Positions 2,655 to 33,032 of a stretch of DNA of 49,614 nucleotides are shown in pieces (positions within the stretch are counted from its first letter, which is position 1; each line of letters begins with the position of its first letter). The notes beneath the pieces are model-generated. The model did not search any database, had not been told where the DNA came from, and saw only the letters and a list, made by a program, of their open reading frames with translations. The position numbers and the translations under genes were made by a program. The DNA comes from a virus. The DNA lies in UHGV virus genome UHGV-0299211; one strand, given 5' to 3'.

Positions 2655-2789
2655 ATGGCGAAAGCAAGAATACACGTAACTAAAACAGCTAAAACTGTTA
2701 AGATTGCAAAAAATAGAAATAAACAAGGCGGAAATCATAAGAGGTGTCCGGTATGTGGTAAGTTCATGGGAAGTGGTAAGCATGGATAA
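2655..2789 (+). CDS. Small basic Zn-ribbon protein (44 aa)
   Basis: MAKARIHVTKTAKTVKIAKNRNKQGGNHKRCPVCGKFMGSGKHG. Strong RBS AAGGTGGTGA 8 nt upstream. Its stop overlaps the start of the next gene. Confidence 0.4.
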   Translation: MAKARIHVTKTAKTVKIAKNRNKQGGNHKRCPVCGKFMGSGKHG

Positions 2790-3015
2790 AAAGAACGCAG
2801 AAACTAGGACGAAATTAAAGAATATAAGTTCTGTAAAAGAGTTTGGTGATTTGATGGAACAAACAATGTTGAGTGAGGAAGAAAAGCAGATTTTATGGAT
2901 GCATTATAAGGAAAAGAAAACCTTACAATGTATAGCGGATGAAATTGGACTATCAGAAATTGCAGTTAAAAAGAAACATAGAAAGATGCTTATGAAAATA
3001 GGAAGAATGATTTGA
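2782..3015 (+). CDS. Sigma-70 region-4-like HTH regulator (possible late-gene or accessory-island activator)
   Basis: LSEEEKQILWMHYKEKKTLQCIADEIGLSEIAVKKKHRKMLMKI resembles sigma region 4 / LuxR-type HTH. The start at 2782 is translationally coupled to the upstream Zn-ribbon ORF. The ORF track extends it to 2704. Confidence 0.5.
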   Translation: MDKKNAETRTKLKNISSVKEFGDLMEQTMLSEEEKQILWMHYKEKKTLQCIADEIGLSEIAVKKKHRKMLMKIGRMI

Positions 3016-3016
3016 G

Positions 3017-3042
3017 GGAGTGCGAAAGCACTCTTTTTTTTT
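3017..3042 (+). terminator. Intrinsic terminator
   Basis: Hairpin GGAGTGC-GAAA-GCACTC followed by T9. Confidence 0.7.
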
Positions 3043-6146: not shown

Positions 6147-6178
6147 TAAGACATAAAAAGAAAAGGAGAACAAAACAA

Positions 6179-9573: not shown

Positions 9574-10767
9574 ATGGGAAATTTTTTCGATTTACACAGG
9601 CACACAGAATATTCATTGTTTGATGGATTTGGAAAGTCTATAAATTTAGCAAAGCACGCAAAGGAGCTAGGCTACAGAGCGTTAGGGATAAGTGACCACG
9701 GAACGATTAGTGGATTAATAAAACATTATCAAGCGTGTAATGAAGTTGGGATAAAACCAGTAATGGGATGCGAGATATATTTTCAACCAAAATTTAATAA
9801 AGAAAATCCGCAGAGAAAAAGTTATCATCTGAATTTGTTTGTAAAGAATTTGAAAGGATATAAAAATCTATGTCACATTATGACAGAAGCAAACACAAAA
9901 CAATTTTATTATAAACCTATAGTTGATTTTAAGTTACTTGAAAAATATTCAGATGGACTTATATGTACAACAGCTTGTATAGCAAGCGCAACGTCACAAG
10001 CTATTTTAAATGGTCATAGAAGCACAGCAGAGCGTTTATTAGATAAGTTTAAGGAAATATTTAAAGATGATTTGTACGTTGAAATACAGCCATATAAGAT
10101 AGACGCACAGGGGACACAACAAAGAACAGATTATGAACTTATGGGAATGGCAAAAAGAAAGAAAATAAAATGTATTCTAACAAGTGATTCACATTTTGGA
10201 AGTAAAGAAGATTTTGATACATATTGTAAAATGCATGAAATCGGAAAAACAACATTGGATGTAAAAAGAACATACAGTGAAAGGTACATGCCTACAGAGT
10301 ATGAGATAACAGAACGGTTTGCAAACATCTATAAAAAGAAGTTTAAAAAGCCAATGGAACTTGCAGAAAGATTTGCAGATAATATGAAAGAAATATATAA
10401 CAAAGTAGAAGAAAACATACTAGATGGGTTAGAATTAGAACTTCCTAAAATATCAGATGATGGAGCAAAACAACTTGAAACATTAACAAAACAGGGATTG
10501 AAAAACAGAAACAAATGGAATAAGGAATACTGGAAAAGATGTAAAGAAGAATTGGAAGTAATTAACTACCATGGTTTTGCAGACTATTTCCTTATTGTTA
10601 GAGATTATATAACATGGGCGAAAGAAAATGGAATTGAAACAGGAAAAGGAAGAGGTTCGGTTTGTAATTGCCTTGTAGCTTATGCAGTAGGAATTACAGA
10701 AGTAGACAGCATAAAATATAACCTTGATTTTAGTAGATTTATGAGAAAGGAAAAGAAGTCATTGCCT
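9574..10767 (+). CDS. dnaE: DNA polymerase III alpha (DnaE-type), exon 1 (PHP domain to ...KKSLP)
   Basis: PHP motif FDLHRHTEYSLFDG...ISDHG. Exon 1 ends in NLDFSRFMRKEKKSLP, which aligns with the E. coli GLLFERFLNPERVSMP segment just before the PDFDVDF catalytic motif. That catalytic motif is found downstream of the intron. Confidence 0.7.
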
Positions 10768-11591
10768 AAACTTATTTGGGCATCATTCGTGAACATTGCT
10801 TAATGGTGTGTATTATTATAATATGCTAACGGTATCAGAAAAATAAGACTCCTTATTGAAATGTTACAACAAGATAATAGGGCATAAGACCATAGACGAA
10901 TAATCTGACTAAGAAACCCTAAACCAGTGATGGTGAGATAGAGGGAATACCGTGCCAAGTCTATATAGAAAGGAAGTGAATTAGATGTTTAAAAGTATGG
11001 AAGAGTTTGACCACCATTCAATAGATGAATATGGAAATGTTTTAAACGAGAAAACAGGAAATATATTAAAACCTTATGTTGGAAGTGGAGGTTATTTGTA
11101 TGTAAAGCCATGTGAGAACAATATAACAAAACATTTGTCAATACATAGAGCAGTAGCAAAATATTTTTGCAAAGGATACAAACCAGAGCTAGTTGTTGAC
11201 CACATAGATGGAAATGTAAAGAACAACTATTATGAAAATCTTAGATGGTGTAAGCAAGCAGACAATTTGAAGTATGGATATGAGAGAAGAAAAGACACGC
11301 CATTCAGAAATTATAGACCATGTAAATTGTATGTTGGAAATAAATTGATAGATGAATTTCTAAGTATAACGGAAGCTGTGGAATATGCAGAAAAACACTA
11401 CGATGTTAAAAGAACAATGTTACATAAACATCTAGTTTATGGAAATGTTCGTATAGAAAGGTGTAACGACTAGTTTGTGAAGAGAGTAACAAGTGTAGGA
11501 ATGGAGATAAGCACCATTCCGAAGTGCGAATGCCACAATAGTGGAAGATATAGTCTAGCCTTGATAGTTTGGAAACGAACGACTAAGGTAG
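10768..11591 (+). mobile_element. Group I intron interrupting dnaE and carrying an HNH homing endonuclease
   Basis: P1: exon ...TGCCT pairs with intron GGGCA, with a U.G pair at the splice site. P7 GACTA (10907-10911) pairs with TAGTC (11551-11555). An AAGATATAGTC S-element is present. The intron ends in G. Splicing restores ...SLP/DIDLDF. Confidence 0.7.
10985..11473 (+). CDS. HNH homing endonuclease (intron-encoded)
   Basis: VDHIDGNVKNNYYENLRW matches the HNH_3 motif. It has its own RBS AGGAAGTGA. It sits in the loop between P7 and P7'. Confidence 0.75.
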   Translation: MFKSMEEFDHHSIDEYGNVLNEKTGNILKPYVGSGGYLYVKPCENNITKHLSIHRAVAKYFCKGYKPELVVDHIDGNVKNNYYENLRWCKQADNLKYGYERRKDTPFRNYRPCKLYVGNKLIDEFLSITEAVEYAEKHYDVKRTMLHKHLVYGNVRIERCND

Positions 11592-13118
11592 GATATTGAC
11601 TTAGATTTCGAACGAGATAGGAGACAGGAAGTAATTGATTATGTTATAAACAAATATCCAAACAAAGCAATACAAATTTGTTCTTATGGAATGTATGGAG
11701 TTGATAATCTTGTGAATGATTTGGCAAGTGTCTGTAACTTAAAAACAACAAAAGATGTTGATTGGTTTGAAGCAGATGAAAATAAAAAAGTAATTGCAGA
11801 AATCAAGTCATATATTAAGGGATTCATAGTAGATGATGAGCTGAATATGAGTAATTTATTGAATGGATACAGAACAGAAGAGTTTAATGAAAAGTATGAC
11901 AACATTATAAAACATTTTTCAAAACTTTATGGTAAAATAAAGTACCTTGGAAAACATTCGGCTGGGGTTGCTGTGGTTGGAACAGATATAAGTGATTATA
12001 CTTGCATTATCATGAGAGATAGAAAGACAGGAGCATTAAGCAGTTGTTTTGACAAAGATGATTTAGAGCATATTAATTGTGTAAAGTTTGATATGCTTGG
12101 ACTTAAAACAATGTCAGAAATGCGTGAGCTTAGAGAGAAAACAGGGCATGAGATAACAGAAGAAGATGAAGAAAGCAAAGAGGTTATAGAGGGATTCAGA
12201 GAGGGAAGAACAGATGGGATTTTTCAGATGGAAAAGTCAGCACCTAAAAAGATTCTTGATATGATTCAGTGTGATTGTATAAATGATATTATAGCAGTGA
12301 ATGCATTAAACAGACCAGCACCATTACAGTTGCACATGCATGAAACATATGCACATAACAAACTTTCTGATAATGTGGATAAGAATACACCATATTATAA
12401 ATATACTCAAGAAACATATGGAACAATGTTATATCAAGAGCAAACAGTTGAAGTAGCGCAGAAAGTTGGACACTTAACACCACAGCAGAGTTTTGATATG
12501 TTAAAGATTATGAAGAAAGCAGAGAACTTAACAAAACCAGAGTACATTCCTATTATTGAACAAATGAAAAAAGATTTCTTTAGAGGATGTAAAAAAGAGG
12601 GACTGACAAAAGAACAAACAAATAGCATATGGGCGAGTATGCTAATCTATGGATTCAACAAGGGGCACTCAACAGGGTATGCGTTAATAAGTATTGACCA
12701 GATGTATTACAAAGTACATTATCCAACACAGTTTTGGTATGTTAAAATGAAGTATGCAGATAATGATGCAGATATCTTTAAATATTCACAGTTTGCAGTA
12801 AAAGATGGTACTGTGGTTATGTTACCGCATGTAAATTATTCAGCTAAAACTTCATTACGTAAAATGGACGGAGAGGACGTTATACAGCAAGGGTTGAGTA
12901 TTATTAAGGGTATTGGAGAAAAAGCCGCAGAAACCATAGAAGAAGAGCGTAGAAAGGGTGTGTTTAAATCATATGATGATTTCTATGACAGATGTAAAGG
13001 AAGAAGTGTTACAAAAGGGGTAATTAAAACATTGAAAGAACAGGGCGCACTTGAATTTAACAAAAACAAATATATGAGCAGAGTAGTAAAATATAATAGC
13101 ACATTAATGGCGAGGTAG
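11592..13118 (+). CDS. dnaE: DNA polymerase III alpha (DnaE-type), exon 2
   Basis: Frame is open from 11592. DIDLDFERDRRQEVIDYV matches the PDFDVDF...RDEVI catalytic region. LGKHSAGVAV matches GxHAAGVVI. Confidence 0.7.
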   Translation, partial: DIDLDFERDRRQEVIDYVINKYPNKAIQICSYGMYGVDNLVNDLASVCNLKTTKDVDWFEADENKKVIAEIKSYIKGFIVDDELNMSNLLNGYRTEEFNEKYDNIIKHFSKLYGKIKYLGKHSAGVAVVGTDISDYTCIIMRDRKTGALSSCFDKDDLEHINCVKFDMLGLKTMSEMRELREKTGHEITEEDEESKEVIEGFREGRTDGIFQMEKSAPKKILDMIQCDCINDIIAVNALNRPAPLQLHMHETYAHNKLSDNVDKNTPYYKYTQETYGTMLYQEQTVEVAQKVGHLTPQQSFDMLKIMKKAENLTKPEYIPIIEQMKKDFFRGCKKEGLTKEQTNSIWASMLIYGFNKGHSTGYALISIDQMYYKVHYPTQFWYVKMKYADNDADIFKYSQFAVKDGTVVMLPHVNYSAKTSLRKMDGEDVIQQGLSIIKGIGEKAAETIEEERRKGVFKSYDDFYDRCKGRSVTKGVIKTLKEQGALEFNKNKYMSRVVKYNSTLMAR

Positions 13119-13125
13119 AAAAGTG

Positions 13126-13479
13126 ATGAAAGAAATTATTGAAACAATGGAGAATGAAGAACGAAAGAAACATGATAATGTAAACCATCCAAAACATTAT
13201 GATGGGAATTGTAGCATTGAATGTATTGATAACATGAGATTGATTTTTGGGAATCAGAGAGTAACTGATTTTTGTATTGTAAATGCATATAAGTATTTGA
13301 GCAGATATAAATATAAAAATGGTAATGAAGATTTAAAAAAAGCAAAATGGTATCTAGACGAAGCAGAGGTATTGAAGTTAACAATGGAAACAGATTTTGA
13401 TTATGGAACATTTGACAAGCTCGTAGATTTATGTAACAGATATATGGAGGAATACACACATGGCAAAGGGAATGAATAA
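13126..13479 (+). CDS. DUF3310-like protein (NHPxHY motif)
   Basis: VNHPKHYDGN...Y motif typical of the phage DUF3310 family. Confidence 0.4.
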   Translation: MKEIIETMENEERKKHDNVNHPKHYDGNCSIECIDNMRLIFGNQRVTDFCIVNAYKYLSRYKYKNGNEDLKKAKWYLDEAEVLKLTMETDFDYGTFDKLVDLCNRYMEEYTHGKGNE

Positions 13480-15340
13480 AGATGGAATATTAAAACTTAT
13501 GTCAGAGATTGACAAAAAAGAAAAAGGAAGTGTTTACAGTTTAGGAAGTAAATCGGATGCACTTAAGATTCCAAGATGGAGTACAGGACTTGTTGACCTT
13601 GATAACATTATTGGTGGCGGAGTTCCTAAAGGAAGAGTCATAGAGATTTTTGGTGCAGAGAGTGCTGGAAAAACAACATTAGGTTATCAGTTATGCGCCC
13701 AGCATGATATGTGTTTGGATATTCCGATTGAGGGATGCGTAGATAAAGATACAGAGTTTTTTAATGGTAGCAGATGGAAAAAGATATGCAATTACAAACA
13801 AGGAGAAAGTGTTTTACAGTATAATGCAGATGGAACAGCAACGTTGGAAAAGCCATTAAAATATCATAAAAAAGATGCTTGTGCAATGTGGAGAGTACAA
13901 ACAAAGAATAGACTTGATATGGTTGTTTCTGAACATCATAATGTTGTTTATAGAACTGTTGGAAGTAATAATTTGCAGATTAGGTCATTCCATGAAATAC
14001 GAAAACGTATAGAAATGAATAAGGATGGTTTTGCTGGGAATATTCCGAAAACATTTATGTACAATGGAAGAGGTATAAATTTATCTGATAGTGAAATTCG
14101 CCTTATGGTTGCCGTGTTTGCAGACGGAAGTTTTAATAAAGGTAACAATTCAAAACAATGTTATATGGGACTCATGAAAAAGAGAAAGCGCAAAAGAATA
14201 AAAATGCTATTGTCGAATTGTAGCGTAGAATATAGAATGTCACAGAATAAAAAGTTTTTTATTTTTGATGCACCGTTTCGTGAAAAGAACTATCCTAGTA
14301 GTTGGTACAATATGACGAATAGACAGTTGATGATAGTTTTGGATGAAATGAAACACTGGGATGGTTGTCAGTTTGAAGTTGGTCATATGCCAAGTTTTAC
14401 AACAACAAATAAAAGTGATGCAGATTTTATTCAATTTGCATACACTTCATGTGGATATTCAGCATATATACAGAAAGTTGATAATTCATGGAAAGATATT
14501 CGCATTGTAGACCATAATGTAAAAAATATGAAGTTGGCGTATACGGTATGTGCAGGGATGAAAAGCAATATTGTAAGTTTGAAAAAAGCGTGGGTTGAAC
14601 CATTTGCCACAGAAGACGGTAAAATGTATTGCTTCACAATGAAGTCTGGAATGTGGGTTATGAGAAGAAACAATAGAATAATCATAACAGGAAATACTTT
14701 TGATGGAGAGAGAGCAAAGCTATTCGGAAACAGACCAAAACAAATGATTGTATATAGAGCAAGATATGGAGAAAAAGCATTTAATAGAGCAATAAGGTTT
14801 GCGGAAGAGGGAATACCACTTGTTATGATTGATAGTGTTCCATCAATGCAGCCAAAGGATGATATCGATAAAATCAGAAAAGCGGTAAATACAGATAGTG
14901 AACAGGAAATGCGTATCGGTGGTGTAGCTAGGTTGATGGATAAGTATTTACCAACACTTGAGGATGTAATAGAACAGACAGGAACAACAGTTATATTTAT
15001 TAATCAGATTCGTGATAAAATGAATGCGTTGCCTTTTGGAGATAACATACAAACTCCGGGCGGTCATAAATTAAAACATAGTGCGTCACTTAGAATACAA
15101 GTAGCAAGAAAAGGTTATATTGAAATTCCTAACCATAATCCATTCAATACAGAAGCGAAAGAGCGTATAGGAATGATTATGAAAGTTAAGGTCGTAAAAA
15201 GTAAAGTGTGTAATCCAATGCAGAGTTGTGAAATCCCATTATTCTATGAACGTGGTTTTGTTGATTTTGCAGACCTTGATTCTGTTAGAAAAGAAATCAT
15301 GGATGAACATAAGAAAAAATACAAGGAAATGTTAGAGTGA
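13460..15340 (+). CDS. recA: RecA recombinase interrupted by an intein
   Basis: P-loop GAESAGKTT. IPRWSTGLVDLDNIIGGGVPKGRVIEIFG. C-terminal extein IDSVPSMQPK...VIFINQIRDKMNALPFGDNIQTPGGHKLKHSASLRIQVARKG aligns with the E. coli RecA core. It is 626 aa against about 306 aa of extein. Confidence 0.8.
   Translation: MAKGMNKDGILKLMSEIDKKEKGSVYSLGSKSDALKIPRWSTGLVDLDNIIGGGVPKGRVIEIFGAESAGKTTLGYQLCAQHDMCLDIPIEGCVDKDTEFFNGSRWKKICNYKQGESVLQYNADGTATLEKPLKYHKKDACAMWRVQTKNRLDMVVSEHHNVVYRTVGSNNLQIRSFHEIRKRIEMNKDGFAGNIPKTFMYNGRGINLSDSEIRLMVAVFADGSFNKGNNSKQCYMGLMKKRKRKRIKMLLSNCSVEYRMSQNKKFFIFDAPFREKNYPSSWYNMTNRQLMIVLDEMKHWDGCQFEVGHMPSFTTTNKSDADFIQFAYTSCGYSAYIQKVDNSWKDIRIVDHNVKNMKLAYTVCAGMKSNIVSLKKAWVEPFATEDGKMYCFTMKSGMWVMRRNNRIIITGNTFDGERAKLFGNRPKQMIVYRARYGEKAFNRAIRFAEEGIPLVMIDSVPSMQPKDDIDKIRKAVNTDSEQEMRIGGVARLMDKYLPTLEDVIEQTGTTVIFINQIRDKMNALPFGDNIQTPGGHKLKHSASLRIQVARKGYIEIPNHNPFNTEAKERIGMIMKVKVVKSKVCNPMQSCEIPLFYERGFVDFADLDSVRKEIMDEHKKKYKEMLE
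13736..14695 (+). mobile_element. Intein (320 aa) with a LAGLIDADG homing-endonuclease domain, inserted in recA
   Basis: It starts at CVDKDTEFF (block A). LAGLIDADG-like motifs LMVAVFADGSF and LMIVLDEMKHWDGC. It ends ...IIITGN, followed by Thr+1 and the extein TFDGERAKLFG. Confidence 0.6.
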
Positions 15341-27398: not shown

Positions 27399-27422
27399 AA
27401 GCAAAATAAATTAAATTTTACA

Positions 27423-27451
27423 TTGACAAATAGATAGTAACATGCTATAAT
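27423..27451 (+). promoter_or_regulatory. Sigma-A promoter TTGACA-17-TATAAT
   Basis: It is followed by about 300 nt of noncoding leader. Confidence 0.7.
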
Positions 27452-27749
27452 AAAATGGAACTAAGGAAATATTCTAGGATAGGGATATATAAGTAACAGC
27501 CATAAATGTTAGCCAAAATATAAAAGGATAAAAACAGTGGACGTATAAAACAAAACAATAAAAAGCCATGTTTGTACTTATAAAATAATTTCGTTCGTAT
27601 ACATAAACCTCGTACACTTGTATAGTTTTATATGTTTACTGTTTTTATATAAAAAGAAATATTGGTGAGGGAGAAGCAAAACAAAGCGAACTTCCTTGCC
27701 TTATTTGATATTATGGAACAAAAAGTAAAAGGAGTGTGAACAGAAACAA

Positions 27750-28274
27750 ATGGCAACAAATAAGAAGTCTCCAAAAGTATTGCGTAATGGAGTAGAAAAC
27801 TTAATTCCAATGAATGAGAGAACACCAGAAGAAAGAAAAAGAATTGGACAGTTAGGTGTTGAAGCAAGAAAGAAGAAACGTGATGAAAAAATGGCATTAC
27901 AGCAATCCATGAAAGCATTACTCACAATGGATATAACAACACAAAAACAAAAACAAATATTAATGCATATGGGTTTCAAAAGTGGTGAACTAACAAACCA
28001 AAACTTATTAATGGTAGCACTGTTTAAAAAAGGTTTAACAGGTGATGTAGGAGCAATCAAAGAAATCGTAAACATGATGGACAAGTTAGATATGTTCAAA
28101 CAAACAGGTAAGGTACAGAATGAAGTAACAATCAACCTCATAACACAGGGTGATGTATATGAACCAAACAAACAGGACGATGAAGAAATATGGAATGCAG
28201 AAAATGGAACAGATTGGCTTGAAGAAGAAAGCGAAGAAGAAGAATGGGGAAATGATGTATATGGCGGTAAATAA
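27750..28274 (+). CDS. terS: Putative terminase small subunit
   Basis: N-terminus NLIPMNERTPEERKRIGQLGVEARKKKRDEK resembles the NLxPFxKRT...GGxASGEARRKKK signature seen in some Firmicutes phage TerS proteins. Acidic C-terminus. I could not verify this by search. It lies 3.4 kb upstream of terL. Confidence 0.4.
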   Translation: MATNKKSPKVLRNGVENLIPMNERTPEERKRIGQLGVEARKKKRDEKMALQQSMKALLTMDITTQKQKQILMHMGFKSGELTNQNLLMVALFKKGLTGDVGAIKEIVNMMDKLDMFKQTGKVQNEVTINLITQGDVYEPNKQDDEEIWNAENGTDWLEEESEEEEWGNDVYGGK

Positions 28275-28361
28275 GCCTATATAAGCGTTTTAAATCACAT
28301 ACCCTATAAAGTTAAGCACATATAAATAAAAAGGATAGAAAAGGCAGATAGGAGGTTTAGA

Positions 28362-28631
28362 ATGAGTATTGCTAATAAAACATATTTAAAAGCAAAAGAA
28401 GAACTAGAAGAACTAGAAGAACTAAATATGCAAATGGATGAAGAAAAACAAAGTAAGTATTTAGTAATCTATACAAAGCTAGATGATTTCGGTAAGGAAA
28501 CAGAACAAACAAATAAAACATTATGCTATGCAGAAAACATACATGAAGCAAAACATAAAAGTATAATGTTATTATCATTAAAAAATTGTAAGGTTAAAAG
28601 CGTAAAATACATGGGTAAGCTATTGTATTAA
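28362..28631 (+). CDS. Hypothetical protein
   Basis: RBS GATAGGAGG. Confidence 0.4.
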   Translation: MSIANKTYLKAKEELEELEELNMQMDEEKQSKYLVIYTKLDDFGKETEQTNKTLCYAENIHEAKHKSIMLLSLKNCKVKSVKYMGKLLY

Positions 28632-28652
28632 ACAGAAAGGAAACAAAATAAA

Positions 28653-28955
28653 ATGTGTAAGTATAAAAAAGTAATGAAAGAGCAAGCGGAGTATTTTGGT
28701 TTAGATAACAGAATGTTACAGTGTACAGAAGAAATGGCAGAACTAACACAGGCATTATGTAAATACAGAAGAGTAATAGATGGAGATAAAACATGTATAG
28801 TAAATGCAACAGAAGCAAAACAGATGATAGCAGAAGAAATAGCAGATGTTGAAATATGTTTAGAACAATTAAAGTACTTACTATGCAACAAAGGACAAGT
28901 AGAAAGAAGAAAAAAGCAGAAAATAAAAAGAACACAGGAAAGGCTAAACAAATAA
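28653..28955 (+). CDS. MazG-like nucleotide pyrophosphohydrolase (small all-alpha)
   Basis: EEMAELTQAL...IAEEIADVEICLEQL matches the ExxE...EExxD MazG motif pair. Confidence 0.5.
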   Translation: MCKYKKVMKEQAEYFGLDNRMLQCTEEMAELTQALCKYRRVIDGDKTCIVNATEAKQMIAEEIADVEICLEQLKYLLCNKGQVERRKKQKIKRTQERLNK

Positions 28956-29110
28956 TAATACTTATATAATAAAAAAAACACAGAACACCATGTGCATAAT
29001 AAAAAGCTATATAAGAAAACATAGAACAAACACAAAACAGAACAAAGGCAAGCATAACAAAGAAGTATAGAACATATATATAATAAAACATAAGAAAGGA
29101 TAGAAGAACA
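28928..29110 (+). repeat. Six copies of an A(T/C)AGAACA / AGAACA direct repeat upstream of the ParB-like gene
   Basis: Copies at 28928, 28980, 29021, 29037, 29067 and 29103. Confidence 0.5.
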
Positions 29111-29658
29111 TGGAAGAACTAAACATTGTTTATAAACCAATAAAAGAACTAAAACCATATAAGAAGAACGCAAAGAAACACAGTAAAGAACAAGTAGAAC
29201 AAATAGCAAACAGTATTAAAGAGTTTGGTTTTACACAGCCAGTAATAATAGATAAACATAACAGTGTAGTAGCTGGACATGGTAGAATATTAGGAGCAAA
29301 GAAAGCAGGACTAAAACAAGTACCTACAGTTTGTTTGGAAGATTTAACAGAAGAACAAATAAAAGCATACAGGCTAGTAGATAACAAACTGAATGAAAGT
29401 GAATGGTACAATGATTTGCTTAACACAGAATTACAAGAACTATGGGATATTGGCGAAGTAGATATGGGGCAGTTCGATTTTGATATTGATGCATTGTTTT
29501 CAGAAGATGAACCAACAGAAAAAGAAGTGAAGTTCAAAACAAAAGAAAAACACGATGTGGTGTTACATTTTAAGAACACAACAGAAATGAACAAAGCATT
29601 CAAAACATTAAAAGGTAAATATCCAGATGCAGTAGTAGAAACAAAGGAAAGTATTTAA
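29110..29658 (+). CDS. ParB-like nuclease domain protein
   Basis: KPYKKNAKKHSKEQVEQIANSIKEFGFTQPVIIDKHNSVVAGHGRILGAKKAG matches the ParB N-terminal (ParBc) domain. Confidence 0.6.
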   Translation: MEELNIVYKPIKELKPYKKNAKKHSKEQVEQIANSIKEFGFTQPVIIDKHNSVVAGHGRILGAKKAGLKQVPTVCLEDLTEEQIKAYRLVDNKLNESEWYNDLLNTELQELWDIGEVDMGQFDFDIDALFSEDEPTEKEVKFKTKEKHDVVLHFKNTTEMNKAFKTLKGKYPDAVVETKESI

Positions 29659-29721
29659 GCACTCATTTTAGGGTTCTTATTTTATTATATAAATAAATAT
29701 AAAATATTTTATAAAAACATA

Positions 29722-29749
29722 TTGACTTTCTGCTATATTGTGTTATAAT
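29722..29749 (+). promoter_or_regulatory. Sigma-A promoter TTGACT-16-TATAAT
   Basis: Read directly from the sequence. Confidence 0.6.
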
Positions 29750-29805
29750 ATAATTAAAGTTAAGGAAAACAAAAACAGAGTAAACAAATTAGGAGGAAGA
29801 ACAAA

Positions 29806-30036
29806 ATGATGAAATTTAAAAAGGATAAAAGAATTGATGGTTTATGGGAAGCAGAAAGAATAGTTGATAAGTTATGGATATCAAGTAACGAATATGTTAT
29901 TGAAAAAGAACCAGTAACAGGAAAGTATTATTTGTATGTAAATGGACAAAAGTATTCAGAAGCCAAAACATTAAAAACAGTAAAGGAACATGCAAATGAA
30001 CATTTTAGAAAAAGTCCTAAAAAAATATTTGCATAA
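29806..30036 (+). CDS. Small hypothetical protein
   Basis: RBS AGGAGGAAG. Confidence 0.45.
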   Translation: MMKFKKDKRIDGLWEAERIVDKLWISSNEYVIEKEPVTGKYYLYVNGQKYSEAKTLKTVKEHANEHFRKSPKKIFA

Positions 30037-30040
30037 AATA

Positions 30041-30069
30041 TTGACATAATAAAGCATATATGTTATTAT
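30041..30069 (+). promoter_or_regulatory. Sigma-A promoter TTGACA-17-TATTAT
   Basis: Read directly from the sequence. Confidence 0.6.
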
Positions 30070-30113
30070 ATAAACAAGTTAAGAGAGATAAAACAAAACA
30101 GGAGGACAAGCAA

Positions 30114-30311
30114 ATGACAAAAAATAATGAAGTATTTGAATTAACACAGGAAGAGTTAGATGTAATCGCAACATATATGAATGATGATATTAGAGAAGAT
30201 GTTGCTTTTGATTTAGATTCATGTACACCGGAAGAGTTTTTAAAAGAGTATGTAAACAGGGATGAAGATTTTGAAGAGCTGTTAAAATCAGAGTTTAGTA
30301 TAGAAATGTAA
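30114..30311 (+). CDS. Small acidic hypothetical protein
   Basis: RBS CAGGAGGACAAG before ATG 30114. The 30060 start in the ORF track lies inside the promoter. Confidence 0.45.
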   Translation: MTKNNEVFELTQEELDVIATYMNDDIREDVAFDLDSCTPEEFLKEYVNRDEDFEELLKSEFSIEM

Positions 30312-30319
30312 AATAATTA

Positions 30320-30348
30320 TTGACAATTGTGGTCGGTTATGTTAATAT
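30320..30348 (+). promoter_or_regulatory. Sigma-A promoter TTGACA-17-TAATAT
   Basis: Read directly from the sequence. Confidence 0.65.
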
Positions 30349-30399
30349 ATAATCAGAAACAAGGAAAACAGTAAAAGATAACAAATAAGGAGAACAGAA

Positions 30400-30615
30400 A
30401 TGGAAAAAAGAAGATTTGAAGTAGGAAAAACATATACAGAAAATGATGTGTTAGTATTTGAGGTAGTAAAAAGAGCAGCAAAGTTTTTAACATATGTTGA
30501 AATTCAGAAGTATGGAAAATACAATGAAACAAGAGAAGAACCAAAAAGAACAAAAATTCATGATTGGGATACAAGAGAAGTGTTCTTCGCAAGTGGTTGT
30601 TTATTAGAAGCATAG
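30400..30615 (+). CDS. Small hypothetical protein
   Basis: RBS AAGGAGAAC. Confidence 0.45.
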   Translation: MEKRRFEVGKTYTENDVLVFEVVKRAAKFLTYVEIQKYGKYNETREEPKRTKIHDWDTREVFFASGCLLEA

Positions 30616-30735
30616 GATTATATGACAGGTGGTTAAAGTCATTAAAACACAGGCATGATGCTTTGAGGGCATTTTTCTTAATCTATTGTAGTTAGTAGGC
30701 TGTAGAGTACTCCCATTCTTTTACAGTCTACGCAT

Positions 30736-30807
30736 TGCCTAGTAGCCAAGTGGTAAGGCACAGGACTTTGACTCCTGCATTCGCTGGTTCGAATCCAACC
30801 TAGGTAG
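30736..30807 (+). tRNA. tRNA-Gln (anticodon TTG)
   Basis: Hand-folded cloverleaf. Acceptor stem TGCCTAG/CTAGGTA with a U1-A72 pair and G73, typical of tRNA-Gln. Anticodon stem CAGGA/TCCTG, loop CTTTGAC. GGTTCGAATCC T-arm with one C.A mismatch. Confidence 0.7.
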
Positions 30808-30895
30808 TTGCACACTGTGAAAAGTTTGCATACCAAATTTCTTTTCTTGCTAAAGTGTTGTGAGTAATGTTCAACAGCATGAAAGCAACACATAA

Positions 30896-30968
30896 GGAGC
30901 ATTAGTTCAATGGCTAGAGCAACCGCCTCATAAGCGGTAAGTTGTAGGTTCGAGTCCCACATGCTCCA
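30896..30968 (+). tRNA. tRNA-Met (anticodon CAT), elongator type
   Basis: Acceptor stem GGAGCAT/ATGCTCC, A73. Anticodon stem ACCGC/GCGGT, loop CTCATAA. T-arm GTAGG-TTCGAGT-CCCAC with one A.C mismatch. Confidence 0.75.
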
Positions 30969-31555: not shown

Positions 31556-31584
31556 TTGACGTATAAAATATAATATGGTATAAT
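31556..31584 (+). promoter_or_regulatory. Sigma-A-like promoter TTGACG-17-TATAAT upstream of terL
   Basis: Followed by a short hairpin CAGAT-N12-ATCTG in the leader. Confidence 0.55.
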
Positions 31585-31673
31585 TAATTCAAACAGAAAG
31601 GCAGATGCACAGTGATGTATCTGTCCTTTTCTGCTATTACAAACAAGTCAAAACAGAAAGGAGAAAAAGAAGC

Positions 31674-33032
31674 ATGGATGTTAATATTGATGTTTCGAAA
31701 AGATTCTCCACTTTTTTAACAGATTGGAATTATGAACAATACCTTTTATTCGGTGGATATGGTAGCGGTAAGAGTTACCATGTCGCACTTAAAATCATAT
31801 TAAAATTATTAGAAGAAAGAAGAACGTGCCTTGTTGTAAGACAAGTATATGGAACAATAAAAGAATCATGTTTTGCATTATTTAAAGAGATACTAGAAAA
31901 GATGAACATGTTAAGTGATGAATCATTACCAAATCAGCACTTGCCTAAGAATGGAAAGGCTGTAGCGGTTATGTCACCAATGGAAGTGAGATTTTCAAAT
32001 GGTAGTAGAATTATATTTAGAGGAATGGACAATGTGGAGAAGATAAAGTCCATACATGGTGTTTCTATCGTTTGGATGGAAGAGTGTAGTGAAATACGTT
32101 ATGATGCCTATACAGAGCTTTTAGGACGTATCAGAGAGCCTAAAATGTCATTACACTTTATTATGACAACAAACCCAGTAGGGAAAGAGAATTGGGTGTA
32201 TAACACATTCTTTGTTCATACAGATGATAAAGGAAAAGAACACGTAATACAGGAAGAACAGGAGATATACAAAAGAAGAACACTTGTAAACAAAAAGAAT
32301 GGAGTATATTATCATCATAGTATTGCAGATGATAACCCTTTCTTGCCAGCATCATATATAAAGCGTCTTGATGGATTAAAGATAAATGACCCGCATTTAT
32401 GGGCGGTAGCAAGGTGGGGAAGATTCGGAGCAAGTGGAACAAGAGTGTTACCACAATTTACGATTGCAACAAACGCAAAACAGTTTACAAATACAATAAC
32501 AAACATACCAAGTAAATATCATTTCTTTGGTTTGGATTTTGGTTTTGAAACAAGTTATAATGCACTAATTAGCTGTGCAGTAGATGATAAAAATAAAATA
32601 CTTTACATTTATGATGAAGTATACAGAAATCATATAACAGATAACAAATTCATTTTGTTGGGTGGAGTACAGAGAACAAAACAAAGAGCAGAAAGGTGTA
32701 AGAAACCTATATTTGCGGATTCAGCAGAGCCAAAAGCAATACAGTATTATAGGCAAGAGGGATTTAACATGTATGCTTGTAAGAAGTATGTAGGAAGTAG
32801 GTTACAGAACACAAAGAAGATGAAACGTTTTAAAAAGATTGTTTGTTCACCTAAGTGCAGAAACACAATAAAGGAATTGAAAGATTTAACATATGCGAAA
32901 GATGCAAAGGGAAATGTGATATATGATGAATTTAATATCGACCCACATACATTTAGTGCCTTATGGTATGCGTTAGACCAGTATACAGTAGCTGATATTA
33001 AGCAAATAAAGACAAATAGCAAGAGTGGTTAG
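31674..33032 (+). CDS. terL: Terminase large subunit
   Basis: RBS AAAGGAGAAAAAG before ATG 31674. Walker A LFGGYGSGKSY. An acidic nuclease-domain region in the C-terminal half. The ORF track starts it at 31605. Confidence 0.75.
   Translation: MDVNIDVSKRFSTFLTDWNYEQYLLFGGYGSGKSYHVALKIILKLLEERRTCLVVRQVYGTIKESCFALFKEILEKMNMLSDESLPNQHLPKNGKAVAVMSPMEVRFSNGSRIIFRGMDNVEKIKSIHGVSIVWMEECSEIRYDAYTELLGRIREPKMSLHFIMTTNPVGKENWVYNTFFVHTDDKGKEHVIQEEQEIYKRRTLVNKKNGVYYHHSIADDNPFLPASYIKRLDGLKINDPHLWAVARWGRFGASGTRVLPQFTIATNAKQFTNTITNIPSKYHFFGLDFGFETSYNALISCAVDDKNKILYIYDEVYRNHITDNKFILLGGVQRTKQRAERCKKPIFADSAEPKAIQYYRQEGFNMYACKKYVGSRLQNTKKMKRFKKIVCSPKCRNTIKELKDLTYAKDAKGNVIYDEFNIDPHTFSALWYALDQYTVADIKQIKTNSKSG

What the first reader, a model, noticed from the sequence alone, without database searches (positions are those of the whole stretch)
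28928..29658. Iteron-like AGAACA repeats upstream of a ParB-like nuclease gene, next to MazG
Six copies of A(T/C)AGAACA occur within about 180 bp, overlapping the end of the MazG-like gene and the leader of the ParB-domain gene. This is the classic arrangement of a centromere-like or origin-like binding array with its ParB-family binder. It could be a partition-like or replication-origin element, or a ParB-dependent packaging or anti-defense function. ParB-like nucleases next to packaging genes are recurrent in pac-type phages.
Basis: partly seen in the sequence, partly recalled or inferred. Interest (0 to 1): 0.55.

Follow-up and report, generated by a model that had tools for sequence, protein, structure and literature searches.

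The report
Conserved AGAACA leader before phage ParB
The AGAACA repeats are real and kept by selection. They look like a regulatory leader in front of a DNA-binding-domain-less ParB-fold gene that in related gut phages partners a DNA-modifying enzyme, not like a plasmid-type centromere or replication origin.

Summary
There are four exact A(T/C)AGAACA copies, not six (28980, 29021, 29037, 29067). The AGAACA core occurs six times in 28929-29110. This is the densest AGAACA cluster in the window and exceeds local chance (4 observed against 0.5 expected in the 154-bp spacer).

The array recurs upstream of ParB homologues in several phage sub-lineages whose spacers are otherwise unalignable. In close relatives the repeat units are conserved (0.95 pairwise identity). 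The linkers between them drift at about the third-codon-position rate (0.77 against 0.78).

The centromere or iteron reading is not supported:
- The 182-aa protein is a ParB N-terminal fold only. It has no helix-turn-helix, no ParA-binding motif and no ParA partner.
- The phage looks virulent, and its replisome genes lie 11-22 kb away.
- Repeat number and spacing differ between lineages.
- Foreign genes can sit between the array and ParB.
- Some relatives keep ParB without the array.

In relatives, ParB is fused to a methyltransferase or followed by a swappable DNA-modification enzyme. This window has lost that enzyme.

Best reading (confidence 0.5): a cis-regulatory leader for a ParB-led DNA-modification module. 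The binding factor is unknown. Interest is moderate.

The parts
28653..28955 (+). MazG-like NTP pyrophosphohydrolase gene (100 aa). It is a facultative cassette and not part of the conserved element.
   Evidence: phrog_2245 E 2e-23; no Pfam hit. It is present in the window, L005, L015 and L027 but absent from most clade A relatives. The insertion/deletion junctions fall on ACAGAA microhomology.
28956..29109 (+). 154-bp non-coding, A-rich (59% A) leader between MazG and ParB. The conserved part begins at about 28982.
   Evidence: Mean pairwise identity among 18 clade A leaders is 0.893, against 0.780 at third codon positions of ParB. The RNA is predicted to be unstructured (-7.5 kcal/mol, z -1.06). 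No sigma-70-type promoter or terminator is called in it and there is no Rfam match. The only ATG-initiated reading frame is interrupted (ATG TGA) in 5 relatives, so it is not coding.
28980..28987 (+). Repeat unit 1 (ACAGAACA). It coincides with the downstream junction of the MazG cassette.
   Evidence: AGAACA in 15 of 18 clade A leaders, AAAACA in 3.
28984..29010 (+). Block I: a unique, nearly invariant 27-nt element, GAACACCATGTGCATAATAAAAAGCTAT. It holds a CATAAT box and, on the - strand, TTATGCACA, which matches the relaxed DnaA-box pattern.
   Evidence: Mean pairwise identity 0.980. The TTWTNCACA match is at 28991-28999 on the - strand. It is confined to clade A (17/18 leaders) and absent from 27 other leaders.
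29021..29028 (+). Repeat unit 2 (ATAGAACA, followed by AAC).
   Evidence: AGAACA in 17 of 18 clade A leaders.
29037..29044 (+). Repeat unit 3 (ACAGAACA, followed by AAG).
   Evidence: AGAACA in 14 of 18 clade A leaders, AAAACA in 4.
29052..29059 (+). Degenerate unit (GCATAACA, followed by AAG). It lies in register with units 2, 3 and 4 (start-to-start 16, 15 and 15 bp).
   Evidence: ATAACA in 13 of 18 clade A leaders and AGAACA in 3 of 18.
29067..29074 (+). Repeat unit 4 (ATAGAACA), abutting a TATATATAAT box at 29075-29084.
   Evidence: AGAACA in 17 of 18 clade A leaders.
29092..29110 (+). Shine-Dalgarno-like AAGAAAGGA, then the spacer ending in AGAACA that overlaps the first base of the ParB ATG (29110-29112).
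   Evidence: Sequence read directly. The same AGAACA-next-to-start context is seen at 6167, 9553, 15489, 29798, 30391, 33765, 38812 and 43969.
29110..29658 (+). Orphan ParB-CTPase-fold protein (182 aa). It has the ParB N-terminal domain at residues 10-92, a GHGR motif in place of GERR, and no helix-turn-helix. Its C-terminal ~45 aa align with the first strand-helix-strand of an N6/N4 methyltransferase domain.
   Evidence: PF02195 E 3e-10. Aligns to Spo0J residues 23-116 only. TIGR00180 scores 46.2 bits against a cut-off of 58.45. Alignment with the ParB-MTase protein P0084. No ParA-binding motif. The AlphaFold model is poor (pLDDT 58) and was not used for fold search.
27423..27451 (+). Consensus sigma-70-type promoter (TTGACA-17-TATAAT with TG). 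It is the nearest upstream promoter from which the leader and ParB could be co-transcribed.
   Evidence: 12/12 match. No terminator is called between it and ParB.
27750..28274 (+). 174-aa candidate small terminase (context only). It lies upstream of ParB in every related locus whose flank reaches that far.
   Evidence: Sub-threshold DUF5681 hit in 23 of 23 family members. Foldseek hit to a 534-aa protein annotated as large terminase (E 0.013), from a low-confidence model (pLDDT 63). Synteny shown.

Best explanation
Proposal. The AGAACA array is the core of a conserved, non-coding leader of about 130 bp. This leader acts in cis as an expression-control region for whatever gene follows it. That gene is normally a two-part DNA-modification module: an orphan ParB-CTPase-fold protein without a DNA-binding domain, followed by or fused to a swappable DNA-modifying enzyme.

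Proposed working. The region is transcribed from upstream (P27423) and/or from a weak promoter inside the leader that lacks a -35 element. The repeated A-Y-A-G-A-A-C-A-A-A-G units, together with the unique block I, are recognition sites for a trans-acting factor. That factor would act on the DNA (operator or activator sites) or on the unstructured A-rich 5' leader RNA (translation or stability). It would set the timing or level of ParB-module expression between replication and packaging.

This window. The enzyme partner has been lost. What remains is the ParB fold with a vestigial methyltransferase N-terminus behind an intact leader.

Shown:
- The repeats exist, are locally enriched, and are individually conserved while their linkers drift.
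- The leader travels with the 5' end of the module and stays in front of inserted genes.
- The protein lacks the DNA-binding and dimerisation parts of ParB.
- Relatives carry enzyme cassettes whose type co-varies with the ParB C-terminal tail.

Inferred: that the leader is regulatory, whether it acts as DNA or RNA, and what binds it.
For: 1. Local enrichment. The spacer holds 4 AGAACA copies against 0.5 expected, and this is the densest cluster in the window.

2. Recurrence across lineages. In 53 ParB-upstream spacers from relatives the density is 1.66 AGAACA per 100 bp, and 75% have 3 or more copies. In 288 other spacers of the same loci the figures are 0.34 per 100 bp and 12.8%. In an unbiased 6-mer count over 9 mutually unalignable leaders, AGAACA has the highest total (27; mean 3.0 per 130 bp against 0.55 expected).

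3. Phylogenetic footprint in clade A (pairwise identity):
- repeat hexamers 0.955
- 11-mer units 0.949
- block I 0.980
- linkers 0.769
- ParB third codon positions 0.780
In clade B the last 75 bp of the leader score 0.911, against 0.675 at third codon positions.

4. The leader behaves like an expression signal.
- It is retained whatever lies upstream: MazG present or absent, or different genes.
- In L020 a 92-aa gene, and in L050 another gene, is inserted between the leader's Shine-Dalgarno sequence and ParB. The leader then precedes the insert.
- It survives in CS266P3, where ParB is truncated.

5. The array is independent of which enzyme follows. The same clade A leader precedes TAGT1, TAGT2, MTase, radical-SAM or no enzyme.

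6. The ParB fold is not a stand-alone site-specific binder by sequence.

7. Published work shows phage ParB-like proteins without a DNA-binding domain acting as activators of DNA-modifying enzymes (PMC13229309). It also shows ParB-N6/N4 methyltransferase fusions enriched in phages (PMC12704722).
Against: - No promoter consensus, terminator, RNA structure or known RNA family was found in the leader. The regulatory mechanism therefore rests on conservation and position only.
- No candidate trans-factor co-varies with the array. The 77-aa sigma-70 region 4 protein of the window has no homologue in the CS266P phages, which do have the array.
- Unit number and spacing vary between lineages, which argues against a fixed cooperative protein-DNA complex.
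- AGAACA is a common hexamer in this purine-rich genome, so part of the signal could be compositional.
- Leaders of clades C, D and F have one copy or none.
- Greater conservation of the leader than of synonymous sites could be inflated by recent recombination of the leader.
Confidence: 0.5

Rival explanations
1. The array is bound by the ParB-fold protein itself. It would serve either as an autoregulatory operator, as DndB does for the dnd operon, or as a loading site. From a loading site a clamp-like ParB could carry its partner enzyme onto phage DNA.
For: - The array is always on the 5' side of the invariant ParB N-domain, whatever enzyme follows.
- ParB-fold partners of DNA-modifying enzymes are known (PMC13229309).
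- DndB is described as a ParB-like transcriptional repressor of its own operon (cited in PMC12704722).
Against: - The protein has no helix-turn-helix or other recognisable DNA-binding domain.
- The ParB N-domain is 68-81% identical in clade D and Dulem virus 36, which lack the array.
- The ParB C-terminal tails differ widely (types T1-T7) behind the same leader.
- Foreign genes can separate the leader from ParB.
Confidence: 0.15
2. The array is part of the pac site, a set of small-terminase binding repeats that starts headful packaging.
For: - The array lies between a candidate small terminase (27750-28274) and a PBSX-type large terminase (Terminase_3, E 9e-58). This order holds in the related loci whose flanks reach these genes.
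- Known pac sites (SPP1, P1) use short direct repeats; this is from my own knowledge.
- Five related contigs from clades C, D and E start inside the leader (L022, L042, L050, L051, L062). Two more start in the gene upstream. About one would be expected given the other contig ends nearby.
- The 50-kb contig of L050 has no terminal overlap at that start.
Against: - The contig starts fall at different, non-homologous positions. They lie in AT-rich, low-complexity leaders of clades that have few or no AGAACA units. None of the clade A or B contigs held starts in its leader. Assembly breaks at low-complexity or hypervariable junctions explain this equally well.
- The small-terminase assignment is weak (pLDDT 63, Foldseek E 0.013).
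- pac sites usually lie in or next to terS, which here is 0.7 kb upstream.
Confidence: 0.1
3. The repeats have no function of their own. They would be a by-product of A/purine-rich composition, short tandem duplications and microhomology-mediated cassette exchange at a recombination hotspot.
For: - Pentamer composition fully explains the genome-wide frequency of AGAACA (136 observed against 132.7 expected).
- The MazG cassette junctions fall on ACAGAA microhomology that includes unit 1.
- The position is a hotspot for gene gain and loss on both sides.
- Single units toggle between AGAACA, AAAACA and ATAACA.
Against: - The units are markedly more conserved (0.95) than the linkers between them (0.77) and than synonymous sites (0.78).
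- Clade B shows the same pattern.
- The motif recurs in leaders that are otherwise unalignable.
- Other spacers of the same loci are 5-fold poorer in the motif.
Confidence: 0.12
4. The array would be a centromere-like parS site or an iteron-type replication origin served by the adjacent ParB-family protein.
For: - The array consists of direct repeats next to a ParB-family gene.
- In clade A the units have a regular 15-16 bp spacing.
- One relaxed DnaA-box match (TTATGCACA) lies in the invariant block I. Its only variable base falls at the N of TTWTNCACA.
- The region has the highest AT skew of the window.
Against: - The window has no ParA, no ParA-binding motif, no helix-turn-helix and no dimerisation domain.
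- No integrase or plasmid-maintenance genes were found among the annotated ORFs, and the phage has its own replisome at 7-18 kb.
- No Rep-type initiator is adjacent to the array.
- Unit length (about 11 nt) and variable spacing are unlike 17-22-bp phased iterons.
- The DnaA-box match is lineage-specific and expected by chance at about 4% per leader. The window-wide count of near-matches equals the shuffle expectation (20 against 19.2).
- Cumulative GC skew shows no inflection here.
Confidence: 0.03

Closest known systems
Phage orphan ParB-CTPase-fold proteins that partner DNA-modifying enzymes: ParB-dependent 5-methylpyrimidine dioxygenases (PMC13229309) and ParB-N6/N4 methyltransferase fusions (PMC12704722)
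   Same: - The protein has the ParB N-terminal nucleotide-binding fold without an obvious DNA-binding domain, and it is encoded on a phage.
- In relatives the gene is fused to an N6/N4 methyltransferase, or is immediately followed by a TET-associated-type glycosyltransferase, a methyltransferase, a radical-SAM protein or an ATPase.
- The ParB tail type co-varies with the enzyme type.
   Different: - The window's copy has no enzyme partner. It ends in a ~45-aa vestige of the methyltransferase N-terminus.
- No dioxygenase was found among the window ORFs that were scanned.
- Neither paper describes a conserved upstream repeat leader.
ParABS partition systems (P1 ParB/parS, chromosomal Spo0J/parS)
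   Same: A ParB N-terminal domain gene lies next to short DNA repeats.
   Different: - There is no ParA, no ParA-interaction motif, no helix-turn-helix and no C-terminal dimerisation domain.
- The repeats are direct, about 11 nt long and irregular between lineages, not 16-bp palindromes or box A/box B sets.
- The phage shows no plasmid-prophage lifestyle.
Iteron-type origins (lambda ori, theta plasmids)
   Same: Four to five direct repeats lie in an A/T-rich non-coding stretch. Clade A also has one DnaA-box-like 9-mer.
   Different: - No initiator gene overlaps or adjoins the repeats.
- The units are half the length of iterons and are not helically phased.
- The replication genes lie 11-22 kb away.
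pac sites of headful phages (SPP1 pacL/pacR boxes, P1 hexamer repeats)
   Same: Short direct repeats lie in the packaging-gene neighbourhood of a phage with a PBSX-type large terminase.
   Different: - The repeats are not within or directly upstream of the candidate terS.
- No ends have been mapped.
- The array is tied to ParB rather than to the terminase genes.
DndB, a ParB-like repressor of the dnd DNA-modification operon
   Same: A ParB-fold protein is linked to a DNA-modification module, and cis sites lie in front of its own operon.
   Different: As I recall, DndB carries additional DNA-binding determinants and binds palindromic sites. Here the repeats are direct and the protein lacks such a domain.

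Membership tests
ParABS partition system | ParB with the central helix-turn-helix parS-binding domain and the C-terminal dimerisation domain | tested here: not met
   Only residues 6-96 align to Spo0J (chain residues 23-116). TIGR00180 matches profile positions 9-101 of 186 at 46.2 bits, below the cut-off of 58.45. Only PF02195 is found by Pfam.
ParABS partition system | A ParA ATPase partner, and an N-terminal ParA-binding motif [LFI]G[KR]G[LFI] on ParB | tested here: not met
   The motif is absent from the protein. No ORF of 150 aa or more in the window has a KGGxGK[ST] Walker A motif. The flanking genes are MazG-like and small ORFs of unknown function.
ParABS partition system | parS: palindromic 16-bp sites, or P1-type box A/box B arrays, bound by the cognate ParB | tested here: not met
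   The units are direct repeats on one strand, and no inverted repeat was found in the leader. Binding itself cannot be tested with these tools.
ParB-CTPase fold (PF02195) | Significant match to the ParB N-terminal domain, with the GxxR phosphate-binding motif | tested here: met
   PF02195 E 3e-10, 40.4 bits against a cut-off of 26.3. GHGR aligns with the GERR of Spo0J. Nucleotide binding was not tested, and PMC12704722 reports that it cannot be predicted from sequence.
Phage ParB-plus-DNA-modification-enzyme modules | A ParB-fold gene fused to, or directly followed by, a DNA-modifying enzyme | tested here: not met
   The window has no enzyme. ParB is followed by 147 bp and then a 76-aa ORF with its own promoter. 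The feature is met in relatives: TAGT (PF20691; 35.5 and 33 bits in family 1, 124 bits in family 2), N6_N4_Mtase (106 bits), radical SAM, an ABC-type ATPase, and ParB-MTase fusions of 388-458 aa. The window gene is therefore an orphaned remnant of such a module.
Iteron-type replication origin | Three or more phased direct repeats of about 17-22 bp, bound by an adjacent Rep initiator, with an AT-rich unwinding element and DnaA boxes | tested here: not met
   The units are about 11 nt long. Spacing is 15-16 bp here, and 8/19/11 bp or 12/14 bp in other lineages. No initiator is adjacent, and the replisome genes lie at 7-18 kb. There is a single relaxed DnaA-box match, confined to one lineage, with a chance rate of about 0.04 per leader.
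pac site of a headful phage | Small-terminase binding repeats at the site where the first packaging cut is made | not testable with these tools
   There is only indirect evidence. The large terminase is PBSX-type. The small-terminase candidate is weak. Contig starts in clades C, D and E fall in the leader, but at heterogeneous AT-rich positions.
Sigma-70-type promoter | -35 and -10 hexamers with a 16-18 bp spacer | tested here: not met
   None is called in 28956-29109. Near-consensus promoters are called at 27423, 29722, 30041 and 31556 (11-12 of 12 matches) and at 30320 (10 of 12).

The most novel reading that the evidence does not exclude
The AGAACA units could be a new kind of parS-like loading site for a ParB-fold protein that has no DNA-binding domain of its own. 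The ParB fold, with its partner enzyme or another adaptor, would load at the leader and spread along the phage genome. It would carry whichever modification enzyme (glycosyltransferase, methyltransferase or radical-SAM) occupies the downstream slot. One conserved cis site would then serve a plug-and-play anti-restriction toolkit.
Probability: 0.07. Interest if true: 0.8.

Novelty: new member of a known kind. Interest (0 to 1): 0.4.

Why it matters
If the leader is a regulatory element, it gives a handle on how a large group of gut Clostridia phages time the expression of ParB-led DNA-modification modules. That class of module has only just been recognised experimentally (PMC13229309).

The comparative data also show ParB acting as a constant adaptor in front of a swappable enzyme slot, with its tail type co-varying with the enzyme. 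This generalises the ParB-dioxygenase pairing to glycosyltransferases, methyltransferases and radical-SAM proteins.

For genome annotation, the result warns against reading 'ParB plus nearby repeats' in a virulent phage as a partition or origin element.

Tried and rejected
- Chi-like or other genome-wide oriented signal. Rejected: the AGAACA count equals the maximal-order Markov expectation.
- T4-type late promoter TATAAATA. Its 17 sites are mostly in coding sequence and not tied to gene starts, and the box is not conserved in the leaders.
- AGAACA as a -35 element. No -10 element lies at 16-18 bp from any unit (read directly).
- Hidden small ORF in the leader. The only ATG frame reads ATG TGA in 5 relatives.
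- Structured RNA or riboswitch. The leader is unstructured and has no Rfam match.
- A second copy of the leader elsewhere in the window. A 14-mer search with up to 2 mismatches gave only low-complexity noise. The one partial paralogue is upstream of the 89-aa gene at 28313-28340.
- The sigma-70 region 4 protein (2782-3015) as the binder. It has no homologue in the CS266P phages, which carry the array.
- LexA (Cheo box), SinR, PhoP and LytTR site comparisons from memory. None fits the unit or its spacing.
- AlphaFold models of ParB (pLDDT 58) and of the 174-aa protein (pLDDT 63). Both were too poor for firm fold assignment. One Foldseek search gave only a weak terminase-related hit.
- Searches of solved structures with the 174-aa and 173-aa proteins found nothing useful.
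- A literature search for CS266P1 found nothing.
Full report
CONTEXT

The window is almost a whole phage genome of about 50 kb. It has about 32% G+C, a purine-rich + strand, and all genes on that strand. Gene content:
- It encodes its own primase, a single-strand-binding protein, a PolA-type polymerase split by an HNH endonuclease gene, a RecA-like protein, an exonuclease, resolvases and RNase H, all between about 7 and 26 kb.
- A PBSX-type large terminase starts at about 31.6 kb, followed by structural genes.
- No integrase or plasmid-maintenance gene was seen among the ORFs scanned.
- Near-consensus sigma-70-type promoters are scattered over early and late regions.
- The closest cultured relatives are Clostridium phages CS266P1-4. 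Many IMG/VR gut contigs of about 50 kb are also related.

THE OBSERVATION

The region is MazG-like gene (28653-28955), a 154-bp spacer, then a ParB N-domain gene (29110-29658).

Exact A(T/C)AGAACA occurs four times (28980, 29021, 29037, 29067). The core AGAACA occurs six times in 28929-29110. Two of the six have ordinary explanations. One consists of two codons of MazG. The other is the spacer between the Shine-Dalgarno sequence and the ATG, a context seen at eight other genes.

AGAACA is frequent genome-wide, but exactly as expected from pentamer composition. The local cluster is nevertheless the densest in the window. It far exceeds shuffles of the spacer itself: 4 observed against 0.5 expected.

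CONSERVATION

I fetched 80 loci with ParB homologues and counted motifs upstream of each.
- Multi-copy AGAACA arrays are present in the window-like clade A, the CS266P-like clade B and its sub-branches, and clade E.
- Outside the motif and the ribosome-binding site, these leaders cannot be aligned with one another.
- Clades C and F keep one copy.
- Clade D has a different repeat (AATATAATATATA, twice).
- Dulem virus 36 has no spacer at all.

AGAACA has the highest total count of any hexamer across nine representative leaders. ParB-upstream spacers are five times richer in it than other spacers of the same loci.

Within clade A, mean pairwise identities are:
- repeat units 0.95
- unique 27-nt block I (28984-29010) 0.98
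- linkers 0.77
- ParB third codon positions 0.78

Clade B shows the same pattern, 0.91 for the last 75 bp of the leader against 0.675 at third codon positions. The units are therefore individually under purifying selection.

WHAT THE ARRAY IS ATTACHED TO

MazG is a facultative cassette. Its presence/absence junctions fall on ACAGAA microhomology that includes unit 1. The leader follows whatever gene lies upstream.

In L020 and L050 a foreign gene is inserted between the leader's ribosome-binding site and ParB, and the leader stays in front. In CS266P3 the leader persists before a truncated ParB. This is the behaviour of an expression leader.

The leader RNA is predicted to be unstructured. It has no Rfam match, no sigma-70 promoter or terminator call and no conserved ORF. 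The nearest upstream promoter is a perfect consensus at 27423.

THE PROTEIN

Only the N-terminal nucleotide-binding fold of ParB is present. It aligns to Spo0J residues 23-116, and GERR is replaced by GHGR. The partition-protein model TIGR00180 is matched only in its N-terminal half and below its cut-off. There is no ParA-binding motif, and no ParA-type ATPase in the window. The C-terminal ~45 residues align with the beginning of the methyltransferase domain of a ParB-MTase homologue.

In relatives, the gene is one of two things:
- a ParB-methyltransferase fusion of 388-458 aa; or
- a separate gene immediately followed by a TET-associated-type glycosyltransferase (two families, about 43 loci), an N6/N4 methyltransferase, a radical-SAM protein or an ABC-type ATPase.

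The ParB tail type co-varies with the enzyme; for example, tail type T2 is followed by TAGT1 in 19 of 19 loci.

This matches recent reports. Phage ParB-like proteins without a DNA-binding domain can activate DNA-modifying enzymes (PMC13229309). ParB-MTase fusions are enriched in phages (PMC12704722). The window's ParB is an orphaned member, because the enzyme slot holds only small promoter-bearing ORFs.

INTERPRETATION

The centromere or iteron reading fails its membership tests:
- no ParA, helix-turn-helix or dimerisation domain;
- no initiator next to the array;
- short units with lineage-variable spacing;
- ParB retained without the array in some relatives.

A single relaxed DnaA-box match in block I is lineage-specific and within chance.

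The best-supported reading is a cis-regulatory leader for the ParB-led module, with the repeat units as recognition sites for an unidentified factor acting on DNA or RNA (confidence about 0.5).

Rivals:
- binding by ParB itself, as autoregulation or as a loading site (0.15);
- a pac site, suggested by the position between a weak small-terminase candidate and the large terminase, and by contig starts inside the leaders of clades C, D and E; weakened by the heterogeneous, AT-rich positions of those starts (0.10);
- a compositional or recombination by-product, contradicted by the footprint (0.12);
- partition site or origin (0.03).

VERDICT

This is a real, selectively maintained repeat array, and its classical interpretation was wrong. 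The gene belongs to a recently recognised kind of phage ParB-fold accessory protein. The leader itself is undescribed but is most simply regulatory. Interest is moderate (0.4). It would be high only if the units prove to be loading sites for a ParB-guided DNA-modification machine.

Noticed in passing
Related loci L001, L011-L017, L020-L022, L026-L029, L034, L037, L045, L046, L054, L057, L058: 0-700 bp downstream of ParB: Directly after ParB there is a swappable DNA-modification slot. It holds a TET-associated-type glycosyltransferase (two families), an N6/N4 methyltransferase, a radical-SAM protein, an ABC-type ATPase or a 259-aa unknown protein; alternatively ParB is fused to a methyltransferase. 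The ParB C-terminal tail type co-varies with the enzyme.
   Followed up: yes
window 27399-27749: A perfect sigma-70 promoter (27423-27451) is followed by a ~300-nt leader with a 31-nt inverted repeat (27528-27558 / 27618-27648). The predicted fold is -58.6 kcal/mol (z -3.3). It lies upstream of the candidate small-terminase gene. No Rfam family matches.
   Followed up: partly
window 27750-28274: A 174-aa protein restricted to this phage group. It gives a sub-threshold DUF5681 hit in 23 of 23 members. Its all-helical model gives a weak Foldseek hit to a 534-aa protein annotated as large terminase. It lies upstream of ParB in every related locus whose flank reaches that far, so it is a candidate small terminase.
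   Followed up: partly
window 31556-31680: A near-consensus promoter (31556-31584) is followed by a terminator-like hairpin (31600-31625 plus a T-run). Both lie upstream of the probable true start of the large terminase (Met24 of the listed ORF, about 31674). This could be a read-through or antitermination control point for the late genes.
   Followed up: no
window 29660-30620: Three small ORFs (76, 83 and 71 aa) each have their own near-consensus promoter (29722, 30041, 30320) and vary between relatives. The 83-aa ORF (30060-30311) has a just-sub-threshold match to the anti-CRISPR family AcrIC5 (25.0 bits against a cut-off of 27).
   Followed up: no
window 30735-30808 and 30896-30968: tRNA-Gln(TTG) and tRNA-Met(CAT) genes lie between ParB and the terminase.
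   Followed up: yes
window 28610-28640 and 28975-28990; loci L029, L030: The MazG cassette is present or absent between relatives. Its junctions fall on an ACAGAA microhomology (taaACAGAAagg ... acACAGAAcacc), which suggests cassette exchange by short-homology recombination.
   Followed up: yes
window 28991-28999 (- strand): TTATGCACA matches the relaxed DnaA-box pattern TTWTNCACA inside the invariant block I. The only variable base of the block is the N. It is present in 17 of 18 clade A leaders and in none of 27 other leaders. The chance rate is about 0.04 per leader.
   Followed up: yes
Starts of contigs L022, L042, L050, L051 and L062 (also L049 and L056): Seven of 80 related contigs begin within 260 bp upstream of ParB, and five of them begin inside the leader. 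All are in clades with AT-rich, low-complexity leaders. This could reflect a physical DNA end or an assembly break. The 50-kb contig of L050 shows no terminal overlap.
   Followed up: partly
window 2782-3037: A 77-aa protein consists only of a sigma-70 region 4 helix-turn-helix (PF04545, E 1.6e-8). It is followed by a strong intrinsic terminator (3014-3037). It has no homologue in the CS266P phages.
   Followed up: partly
window 9574-13118: The PolA-type DNA polymerase is split into two ORFs (9574-10803 and 11691-13118) by an HNH endonuclease gene (10985-11473). This may be an intron or a homing insertion.
   Followed up: no
window 13460-15340: A 626-aa RecA-like protein matches RecA/Rad51 in two pieces (about residues 39-87 and 412-600), separated by about 320 residues. 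This may be an intein or an inserted domain.
   Followed up: no
window 28313-28340: The sequence upstream of the 89-aa gene (AGCACATATAAATAAAAAGGATAGAA) is a partial paralogue of the 3' part of the ParB leader (AGAACATATATATAATAAAACATAAGAAAGGATAGAA).
   Followed up: partly
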